Assembly: GCF_965641715.1 (NCBI RefSeq)
Contig: NZ_OZ282453.1
From: Escherichia coli
Lineage (GTDB): Bacteria; Pseudomonadota; Gammaproteobacteria; Enterobacterales; Enterobacteriaceae
Length of the DNA: 64,000 nucleotides
Reading direction: 5' to 3' (one strand)
The notes below the pieces were generated by a model that was not told the DNA's origin, searched no databases, and worked only from the letters and a program-made list of their open reading frames with translations. The position numbers and the translations under genes are program-made. Below, piece after piece: positions 11,985 to 13,086 of this stretch. How positions within the stretch are numbered: position 1 is the first letter of the stretch; every line of letters starts with the position of its first letter.

Positions 11985-12229
11985 AGTCACTCCTGAGTTC
12001 AATGAGATTTCAAACGGATTCAAAGTGAATCATGTTAGGTAATTCTAATACCACATTATGTGTTTTTTCAACACGAAGAAATCGCATCAAAAATCTCATT
12101 CGGAAAGTGATATGGGTAAACAAACTGGAATACTTTTCTGTCCTAGTGTGCTCGCCATGTATAAAAATGCTGTAAAATGCGTGGTCCTGTTTTGGGGAAA
12201 AGTTTTGGAGAGATTTTGGAGAAAGGAAA

Positions 12230-12295
12230 AAATTGAATAAATTCAAAATCCTGAAAGTGCTCCACCTTATGAATAAGAAGGTAGAACTCGAATGA
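12230..12295 (+). other. potB: potB 3'-terminal remnant at the prophage-chromosome junction (candidate attR core)
   Basis: Only the last codons (...NKKVELE, stop overlapping the potC ATG) match the PotB C-terminus as remembered; sequence upstream is AT-rich and charged, not PotB-like; no potB ORF precedes potC. Confidence 0.4.
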
Positions 12296-13086
12296 TCGGT
12301 CGACTGCTTCGCGGCGGTTTTATGACCGCTATCTACGCGTACCTGTATATCCCAATCATTATTTTGATTGTGAACTCTTTCAACAGCTCGCGCTTTGGCA
12401 TCAACTGGCAGGGTTTTACCACTAAATGGTATAGCCTGCTGATGAACAACGACAGTCTGTTGCAGGCAGCTCAGCATTCATTGACGATGGCGGTGTTTTC
12501 AGCGACGTTTGCTACGCTTATCGGTTCACTGACTGCAGTTGCGCTGTACCGTTATCGCTTTCGCGGTAAGCCGTTCGTTAGCGGAATGCTGTTTGTGGTG
12601 ATGATGTCGCCAGATATTGTGATGGCGATTTCGCTGCTGGTGCTGTTTATGCTGCTGGGTATTCAGCTTGGCTTCTGGTCGCTGCTGTTCTCGCATATCA
12701 CCTTCTGCCTGCCATTTGTGGTGGTGACGGTGTATTCGCGCCTGAAAGGTTTTGACGTGCGAATGCTGGAAGCGGCGAAAGATCTCGGTGCCAGCGAATT
12801 TACCATTCTGCGAAAAATCATTCTGCCACTGGCAATGCCAGCGGTGGCGGCGGGCTGGGTGTTAAGCTTTACCCTGTCGATGGACGATGTGGTGGTTTCT
12901 TCGTTCGTCACTGGGCCGAGTTATGAAATTCTGCCGTTAAAAATTTATTCGATGGTCAAAGTCGGCGTATCGCCGGAAGTTAACGCGCTGGCAACCATAT
13001 TACTGGTGCTGTCGCTGGTGATGGTTATTGCCAGCCAGCTTATTGCTCGTGATAAAACGAAAGGTAACACAGGGGACGTTAAATGA
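12292..13086 (+). CDS. potC: Spermidine/putrescine ABC transporter permease PotC
   Basis: 264-aa translation recognised as E. coli PotC. Confidence 0.95.
   Translation: MIGRLLRGGFMTAIYAYLYIPIIILIVNSFNSSRFGINWQGFTTKWYSLLMNNDSLLQAAQHSLTMAVFSATFATLIGSLTAVALYRYRFRGKPFVSGMLFVVMMSPDIVMAISLLVLFMLLGIQLGFWSLLFSHITFCLPFVVVTVYSRLKGFDVRMLEAAKDLGASEFTILRKIILPLAMPAVAAGWVLSFTLSMDDVVVSSFVTGPSYEILPLKIYSMVKVGVSPEVNALATILLVLSLVMVIASQLIARDKTKGNTGDVK

What the first reader, a model, noticed from the sequence alone, without database searches (positions are those of the whole stretch)
12024..12300. Prophage inserted at the 3' end of potB, splitting the potABCD polyamine-uptake operon
potC begins intact at 12292 and its ATG overlaps a stop codon preceded by ...NKKVELE, which matches the PotB C-terminus as I remember it. 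Immediately upstream the sequence is phage-like and there is no potB ORF; the integrase lies 1 kb further left. The attachment site therefore appears to lie within the last codons of potB, and potCD are separated from potAB and the operon promoter by the whole prophage. int transcription toward potC is stopped by a terminator, so potCD expression in the lysogen would need an internal or phage-end promoter.
Basis: partly seen in the sequence, partly recalled or inferred. Interest (0 to 1): 0.6.

Follow-up and report, generated by a model that had tools for sequence, protein, structure and literature searches.

The report
Prophage attR at known potB/potC site
This is the right-hand junction of a lambda-like prophage sitting in the well-known potB/potC integration site of E. 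coli, found in about 30% of complete E. coli genomes, so it is real but ordinary.

Summary
potC (12292-13086) and potD are intact. The 26 bases before and overlapping the potC start are the last codons of potB. Everything left of 12270 is lambdoid prophage, and the window contains no potA or potB. Comparing attL, attB and attR in related genomes gives a 14-bp core, TGAATAAGAAGGTG (window 12270-12283), inside potB codons L-N-K-K-V. It includes the purine-rich stretch I read as the potC ribosome-binding site. The integrase (10114-11232) is a clear lambda Int homologue with an excisionase upstream.

One refinement: potB is not destroyed. In relatives the phage supplies a new tail at attL (NKKV-SELDD, 287 aa, versus NKKV-ELE, 285 aa).

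The same attR junction occurs in 1623 of 5426 complete E. coli genomes, including CFT073 and O157:H7. The literature already lists potB/potC as a prophage site (phi-CFT073-potB, Sakai Sp6, PP_potB, Stx phages).

The "terminator" after int is mainly the terminator of an opposite-strand two-gene cassette, present in only 209 genomes. I found no convincing plus-strand promoter ahead of potC, so how potCD are transcribed remains open. PotC is identical at the protein level in occupied and empty strains, and potD mRNA is measurable in CFT073.

Verdict: already known, low interest.

The parts
12270..12283 (+). att core (attR copy): TGAATAAGAAGGTA in the window, TGAATAAGAAGGTG elsewhere. It lies in potB codons L-N-K-K-V and contains the purine-rich AAGAAGG upstream of the potC ATG.
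   Evidence: This is the only stretch shared by attL (L003 18665-18678), empty attB (L002) and attR. Homology of empty-site genomes starts at 12270 on the attR side and stops at L003 18678 on the attL side.
12284..12295 (+). Host-derived last codons of potB (E-L-E-stop). The stop overlaps the potC start in ATGA.
   Evidence: Identical to the uninterrupted potB-potC junction.
12269..12295 (+). 8-codon mini-ORF MNKKVELE*. Its ATG is made from the phage base A12269 plus the core TG. No Shine-Dalgarno sequence is evident upstream, so it is probably a by-product.
   Evidence: Read from the sequence. The ATG is conserved in the CFT073, O157 and HCP5S3 attR.
12163..12269 (+). Conserved phage arm of attR (P arm), shared by all prophages of this integration type.
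   Evidence: Homology to the O157, CFT073 and other occupied genomes starts at about 12163.
12189..12222 (+). Three tandem (G/A)TTTTGGRGA repeats, candidate arm-type Int binding sites (inferred).
   Evidence: They are invariant in CFT073 and O157. A further GTTTTGGAGA lies in the phage arm of attL in L003 at about 18793. The motif is not enriched in the window as a whole, so the argument rests on clustering and conservation.
11239..12160 (-). About 920-bp cassette inserted between int and the P arm, with its own promoter, two genes and a terminator on the minus strand.
   Evidence: Absent from CFT073 and O157, where about 35 unrelated bases occupy this position. Present with the junction in 209 of 5426 genomes.
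12042..12071 (-). Promoter-like site TTGAAA-18-TAGAAT facing into the prophage, upstream of the cassette genes.
   Evidence: 10 of 12 consensus matches. It falls in the top 3e-6 of the position-weight-matrix scores I computed over the whole window.
11781..11984 (-). Small ORF (67 aa from the ATG with an AGGAG upstream; 80 aa from the mechanical TTG start at 12023). The N-terminus MKRKRVALLQAIGSVIALSPAVVSA looks like a signal peptide.
   Evidence: RefSeq annotates a 204-bp hypothetical protein at the equivalent place. No PHROG or NCBIfam match.
11336..11803 (-). DUF2335 membrane protein (155 aa), classed as a moron.
   Evidence: phrog_3996, 'membrane protein; moron' category, E 1e-41. RefSeq name in the relative.
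11307..11330 (.). GC-rich hairpin AAACCCCGGC-tgat-GCCGGGGTTT. It is an intrinsic terminator for the minus-strand cassette (followed by UUUUU) and only a weak candidate for the plus strand.
   Evidence: Folding gives -19.9 kcal/mol (minus strand, z -5.7) and -21 kcal/mol (plus strand, z -4.9). Inverted repeat I13.
10114..11232 (+). Tyrosine integrase, a lambda Int homologue with an N-terminal arm-binding region.
   Evidence: phrog_7244 and phrog_1. E 9e-55 to lambda Int structures 1Z1B/1Z1G over residues 26-370, with TGQR, QxKTG, FHExRS, LLGHK and the C-terminal Tyr motif aligned.
9876..10145 (+). Excisionase, overlapping the int start.
   Evidence: phrog_629, E 5e-26. RefSeq annotation in relatives.
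7343..9814 (+). RecE / exonuclease VIII-like protein (823 aa).
   Evidence: Partial match to NF007259, below its cut-off. Relatives annotate it as exonuclease.
12292..13086 (+). potC, intact.
   Evidence: NF007047 at 485 bits. The protein is identical to PotC of empty-site and other occupied strains despite 13-21 nucleotide differences from the window (8-27 across all pairs).
13083..14129 (+). potD, intact.
   Evidence: 0-2 amino-acid differences against 20-29 nucleotide differences from the window.

Best explanation
Window 12024-12300 is the right junction (attR) of a lambda-like temperate prophage integrated by a lambda-Int-type tyrosine recombinase. The site is the standard potB/potC attachment site of E. 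coli, the same site used by phi-CFT073-potB and by Sakai Sp6 / PP_potB.

Shown:
- The 14-bp core TGAATAAGAAGGTG lies in potB codons 279-283.
- To its right is native chromosome: the end of potB, then potC and potD.
- To its left is phage: a conserved roughly 105-bp arm with three tandem TTTTGGRGA repeats, then a strain-variable two-gene cassette on the opposite strand, then int, xis and the rest of the early region.
- In related genomes the other junction keeps potA and a full-length potB, whose last three residues are replaced by five phage-encoded ones.

Inferred:
- Both coding sequences and the potC ribosome-binding site (inside the core) survive integration. What is lost is transcriptional linkage, because potCD are about 45 kb from the potA promoter.
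- In the repressed lysogen potCD are probably transcribed only weakly, from poor promoters in the AT-rich phage end or from leakage of int-direction transcripts through the hairpin.
- On induction they would be read through from the early leftward operon, as happens for gal next to a lambda prophage.
- Excision by Int and Xis would rebuild the intact operon.
For: - Breakpoints: homology to empty-site genomes starts at 12270. On the other side it ends at the last core base. The three-way alignment defines the core.
- Int is a lambda Int homologue with its catalytic motifs, and xis lies upstream.
- The rest of window 1-12269 is a lambdoid early region.
- There is no potA or potB in the window.
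- In the relative HCP5S3_I2, potA-potB sit at attL and a 45-kb prophage lies between them and potC. PotB there is 287 aa ending NKKVSELDD, against native NKKVELE.
- CFT073 has the same layout.
- The attR junction is present in 1623 of 5426 genomes.
- Literature names the site: phi-CFT073-potB (PMC4632033), PP_potB in O157:H7 and O145:H28 (PMC9997748, PMC7067040), Sp6 at potC/potB (PMC8190617), Stx phages at potC (PMC8065619), and 'a known phage insertion site' (PMC11052207).
- For continued use of potCD: PotC is identical at the protein level across occupied and empty strains despite 8-27 silent differences. potD mRNA is measurable and regulated in CFT073 RNA-seq (PMC8716947).
Against: - The left end of this particular prophage is outside the window. 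Its attL and its potAB are inferred from relatives, and no genome in the collection is more than 99% identical over this stretch.
- No plus-strand promoter stands out between the hairpin and potC. The best scores are about 7.5, which is roughly what chance gives in 250 AT-rich bases. The proposed route of potCD transcription is therefore not demonstrated.
- The CFT073 expression datum comes from the variant that lacks the cassette and the hairpin.
- The arm-site assignment is by analogy with lambda only.
Confidence: 0.9

Rival explanations
1. It is a prophage remnant rather than a complete prophage. The right end (int, attR) survives, but the left part, possibly with potAB, has been deleted or rearranged, so polyamine uptake by PotABCD is simply lost in this strain.
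For: The left end is outside the window. PMC9997748 and PMC7067040 report frequent deletions and replacements in prophages at potB. In O157 strain 2-6-2 the exonuclease gene next to int is already truncated.
Against: All early-region genes in window 1-12269 are intact ORFs with full-length family matches. potC and potD are intact and unchanged at the protein level. Relatives with 97-99% identity carry full prophages with potAB at attL.
Confidence: 0.1
2. The prophage works as a reversible genetic switch ('active lysogeny'). Excision without lysis restores the potABCD operon when polyamine uptake is needed, and integration turns it down.
For: Integration splits an operon yet preserves both reading frames and the potC ribosome-binding site. 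Int and Xis are intact. The site is occupied in 30% of genomes. Occupancy is patchy within O157:H7 clade 8 (PMC9997748).
Against: Nothing here shows regulated excision or a phenotype. Preserving the target gene's end is usual for phages that integrate into 3' ends of genes. Patchy occupancy is equally well explained by repeated gain and loss. E. coli also has other polyamine uptake systems and makes its own spermidine (established knowledge).
Confidence: 0.04
3. The roughly 1 kb upstream of potC is native chromosome or an assembly artefact, not a phage junction.
For: None found.
Against: About 3800 genomes have potB joined directly to potC, with homology starting at 12270. The upstream 1 kb occurs only next to this integrase. 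1623 independent complete assemblies share the junction.
Confidence: 0.01

Closest known systems
phi-CFT073-potB prophage of E. coli CFT073 (named in PMC4632033)
   Same: Same core, the same conserved roughly 105-bp phage arm with the three TTTTGGRGA repeats, the same int-xis-exonuclease order and orientation, and potB of 287 aa at the other end.
   Different: CFT073 has only 166 bp between int and potC. The window has a roughly 920-bp two-gene cassette with a hairpin inserted there. Late regions differ among members.
Sakai Sp6 / 'PP_potB' prophages of STEC O157:H7 and O145:H28, and Stx phages at potC (PMC8190617, PMC9997748, PMC7067040, PMC8065619, PMC11052207)
   Same: Same insertion locus, flanked by potC and potB. 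The O157:H7 strain examined here has the same integrase family and the same attR arm.
   Different: The O157 copy lacks the cassette and has one silent change in the core (AAG to AAA). The window shows no stx genes, but the late region is outside it.
Bacteriophage lambda Int/Xis site-specific recombination
   Same: The Int is homologous over its whole length (E 9e-55) with catalytic motifs conserved. xis lies just upstream. int is transcribed towards att. There are repeated short motifs in the arm.
   Different: The target and core sequence are different (potB 3' end rather than the gal-bio intergenic site). Arm, IHF and Xis sites have not been mapped.
Phages that integrate into the 3' end of a protein gene and supply a substitute end (phage 21 and e14 in icd; established knowledge, not tested here)
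   Same: The phage arm at attL carries replacement codons, so the target protein stays full length.
   Different: Here the target is an internal gene of an operon, so the downstream genes potCD are also cut off from the operon promoter.

Membership tests
potB/potC-integrating lambdoid prophages (phi-CFT073-potB / Sp6 / PP_potB type) | The junction with the chromosome lies at the potB-potC boundary, with genomes that have an empty site available for comparison. | tested here: met
   Homology to uninterrupted potB-potC starts at 12270. About 3800 genomes have the empty site.
potB/potC-integrating lambdoid prophages (phi-CFT073-potB / Sp6 / PP_potB type) | Same core and same phage arm as the named members. 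| tested here: met
   Alignment with CFT073 and O157:H7: 12165-12295 is nearly identical.
potB/potC-integrating lambdoid prophages (phi-CFT073-potB / Sp6 / PP_potB type) | A direct repeat of the core at the other prophage end (attL), next to potB. | not testable with these tools
   The left end is outside the window and the source genome is not in the collection (best match 99.0%). The feature is met in the relatives HCP5S3_I2 and CFT073.
Lambda-Int family tyrosine recombinases with an arm-binding domain | Full-length homology to lambda Int with the catalytic Arg-Lys-His-Arg-His-Tyr positions. | tested here: met
   E 9e-55 to 1Z1B. The motifs TGQR, QGKTG, FHEQRS, LLGHK and DRY align with the lambda motifs. 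PHROG integrase families also match.
Lambda-Int family tyrosine recombinases with an arm-binding domain | Arm-type binding sites in both att arms, bound by the N-terminal domain. | tested here: inconclusive
   Three tandem conserved TTTTGGRGA repeats lie in the attR arm and one in the attL arm of a relative. No binding data exist, and the motif is not enriched window-wide.
Phage regulatory switch / active lysogeny | Regulated, non-lytic excision that restores expression of the interrupted host genes. | not testable with these tools
   This needs excision assays and expression data. Only the prerequisite is seen, namely intact int and xis and a precise core.
Moron (independently transcribed accessory cassette in a prophage) | Own promoter and terminator, orientation independent of neighbouring phage genes, and presence/absence polymorphism among otherwise related phages. 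| tested here: met
   Strong promoter-like site at 12071-12042 and a hairpin plus U-run at 11330-11307 on the minus strand. Absent in CFT073 and O157. phrog_3996 falls in the 'moron' category. Promoter activity itself has not been tested.

The most novel reading that the evidence does not exclude
Because integration keeps potB, potC and the potC ribosome-binding site intact but puts potCD downstream of the phage's int-direction transcription, polyamine uptake would become dependent on the prophage's state. It would be low in the repressed lysogen, driven by read-through on induction, and fully restored on excision. The prophage would then act as a widespread (30% of strains) modulator or switch of spermidine import. 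The cassette variant seen here would insulate potCD further through its hairpin and convergent transcription.
Probability: 0.07. Interest if true: 0.45.

Novelty: already known. Interest (0 to 1): 0.12.

Why it matters
It has little importance as a discovery. The potB/potC locus is a catalogued prophage and Stx-phage insertion site, and this window is one more occupied copy.

Two points are of some use. First, the anatomy is now explicit: a 14-bp core that contains the presumed potC ribosome-binding site, a phage-supplied PotB tail, and candidate arm sites. Second, nearly a third of complete E. coli genomes have potCD cut off from the potA promoter, and I found no published test of the consequence for spermidine uptake. 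That test is simple and has apparently not been done, but a large effect is not expected, because E. coli has redundant polyamine supply.

Tried and rejected
- Phage collection search for a free-phage attP. The only two hits are prophage predictions that include host potCD flanks, so no independent attP was obtained. attP was reconstructed from attL plus attR instead.
- Search for the source genome. The best match is 99.0% identity, so the window's own left end could not be inspected.
- Consensus scan and my own sigma-70 position-weight-matrix scan for a plus-strand promoter in 11230-12295. Only weak candidates appeared, for example TCGCCA-15-TAAAAT at 12152-12178. The TAAAAT is conserved in CFT073 and O157 but the -35 region is not, so I rejected it as evidence of a promoter.
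- RNA folding of 12160-12300. The z-score is 0, so there is no structured leader.
- Literature searches for a phenotype or transcript map of potCD in potB lysogens. Only indirect data turned up: CFT073 potD in RNA-seq, and EDL933 'potABCD' reported as a unit. I could not establish prophage occupancy for the strains in PMC7649339.
- NCBIfam gave nothing for int, xis or the cassette proteins. PHROGs did.

Full report
**Observation**

potC is a complete ORF at 12292-13086, with potD following at 13083-14129. potC scores 485 bits against the NCBIfam PotC model, whose cut-off is 326. Immediately upstream, 12269-12295 reads ATG AAT AAG AAG GTA GAA CTC GAA TGA, and the TGA overlaps the potC ATG. Native PotB ends LLNKKVELE. 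A lambda-type integrase occupies 10114-11232, and an excisionase overlaps its start. A search with PotA, PotB and their DNA finds no potA or potB in the 64-kb window, only the last 26 nt of potB at 12270-12295 and paralogue hits.

**Where the junction is**

Against 5426 complete E. coli genomes, those with potB joined directly to potC match the window only from 12270 rightwards.

I took a close relative with the same prophage end, strain HCP5S3_I2, and located its other prophage end. potA and potB lie about 45 kb upstream, and a full set of lambdoid late and early genes sits between them and potC.

Aligning that attL, an empty attB (FDAARGOS_1289) and the window's attR leaves one shared stretch, TGAATAAGAAGGTG. 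This is window 12270-12283, where the last base is A, a silent GTA/GTG difference. Empty-site genomes match attL up to exactly the last base of that stretch. The core is therefore 14 bp, in potB codons L-N-K-K-V. It includes AAGAAGG nine bases before the potC ATG, which I read as the potC ribosome-binding site (inference).

**What integration does to the genes**

At attL the phage arm continues the potB frame with SELDD-stop in place of ELE-stop, giving a 287-aa PotB that RefSeq annotates as complete. At attR, potC keeps its own start and upstream purine-rich element. Neither gene is broken.

What is lost is co-transcription: potCD are cut off from the potA promoter by the whole prophage. The ATG at 12269 is formed by a phage A plus the core TG. 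It is conserved in other attR copies but has no obvious Shine-Dalgarno sequence, so I treat the mini-ORF as a by-product.

**The recombinase and the arm**

The integrase aligns over residues 26-370 with lambda Int structures (E 9e-55). The TGQR, KTG, FHExRS and LLGHK motifs and the C-terminal tyrosine motif are all in place.

The roughly 105 bp left of the core (12163-12269) is conserved in CFT073, O157:H7 and other occupied genomes. It holds three tandem (G/A)TTTTGGRGA repeats at 12189-12222. One more lies in the attL arm of the relative. I propose these as arm-type Int sites by analogy with lambda. That is not tested.

**The stretch between int and the arm**

In CFT073 and O157:H7 only 166 bp separate int from potC. 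The window has about 920 extra bases (roughly 11239-12160). On the minus strand they carry:
- The best promoter-like site of the region, TTGAAA-18-TAGAAT at 12071-12042.
- A small ORF with a signal-peptide-like N-terminus.
- A DUF2335 membrane protein, phrog_3996 in the 'moron' category.
- A GC hairpin at 11307-11330 followed by UUUUU on the minus strand.

This is a typical moron, found with the junction in 209 genomes. On the plus strand its only U's are already paired in the stem.

**Transcription of potCD**

Neither the consensus scan nor my weight-matrix scan finds a plus-strand promoter better than chance expectation between the hairpin and potC. The leader shows no unusual structure.

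Indirect evidence argues against decay of potCD. PotC is identical at the protein level in the window, three other occupied strains and an empty-site strain, despite 8-27 nucleotide differences. PotD differs by 0-3 residues. In CFT073, which has the cassette-less version, RNA-seq detects and quantifies potD (PMC8716947).

My best guess, marked as inference, has three parts:
- In the repressed lysogen there is low-level transcription from weak AT-rich promoters or leakage from the int direction.
- On induction there is read-through from the early leftward operon. The repressor, exonuclease, xis and int genes all point towards potC.
- On excision the operon is fully restored.

**Comparison with what is known**

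- The same attR junction is present in 1623 of 5426 complete genomes, about 30%.
- CFT073's prophage at this site is named phi-CFT073-potB (PMC4632033).
- Sakai Sp6 is listed with potC/potB as its insertion site (PMC8190617).
- PP_potB is described in O157:H7 clade 8 and in O145:H28 (PMC9997748, PMC7067040).
- potC is listed among Stx-phage sites (PMC8065619) and is called a known insertion site in O157:H7 and other STEC (PMC11052207).

The finding is therefore a correct reading of an already catalogued and very common arrangement.

**Limits**

- The window's own left end is outside the sequence, and the source genome is not in the collection (best match 99.0%).
- attP could not be taken from a free phage, because the only phage-collection hits are prophage predictions with host flanks.
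- I found no published test of spermidine uptake or potCD transcription in potB lysogens.

**Verdict**

Novelty: already known. Interest: low.

Noticed in passing
window 11239-12160: A two-gene minus-strand moron sits between int and the att arm: a small signal-peptide ORF plus a DUF2335 membrane protein, with its own promoter-like site and terminator. It is absent from the CFT073 and O157:H7 versions of the same prophage type and present in 209 of 5426 genomes. Its function is unknown.
   Followed up: partly
window 14130-14285: ymfA and ycfZ (about 1.3 kb) are missing between potD and cobB. Only the first ~20 nt of ymfA remain, joined to the REP-like sequence before cobB. O157:H7 strain 2-6-2 has the same deletion, whereas CFT073, HCP5S3_I2 and FDAARGOS_1289 have both genes.
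   Followed up: partly
window 6647-6698 (+) and 1-101 (-): A DicF antisense sRNA (76.7 bits) lies in the prophage early region. A sok antitoxin RNA of a hok/sok module is cut by the window start. Both are typical of Rac/Qin-like lambdoid prophages.
   Followed up: no
window 12283; L004 (O157:H7) core: The core is not invariant. The window has A instead of G at the last core base (GTA/GTG Val), and the O157:H7 copy has AAA for AAG (Lys) inside the core. Both changes are silent in potB. Whether they mark the crossover region or are ordinary host polymorphism was not determined.
   Followed up: no
window 12269-12295: The phage base A12269 plus the core TG create an ATG that opens an 8-codon ORF (MNKKVELE) ending in the ATGA overlap with potC. 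It is conserved in all attR copies examined. No Shine-Dalgarno sequence is seen upstream. Any role in translational coupling to potC is untested.
   Followed up: partly
L003 18590-18790 (attL arm of strain HCP5S3_I2): Only 945 genomes share this attL phage arm, against 1623 that share the attR arm. O157:H7 and O111:H8 copies diverge about 30 bp past the core. The int-proximal arm is thus much more conserved than the distal arm among prophages at this site.
   Followed up: no
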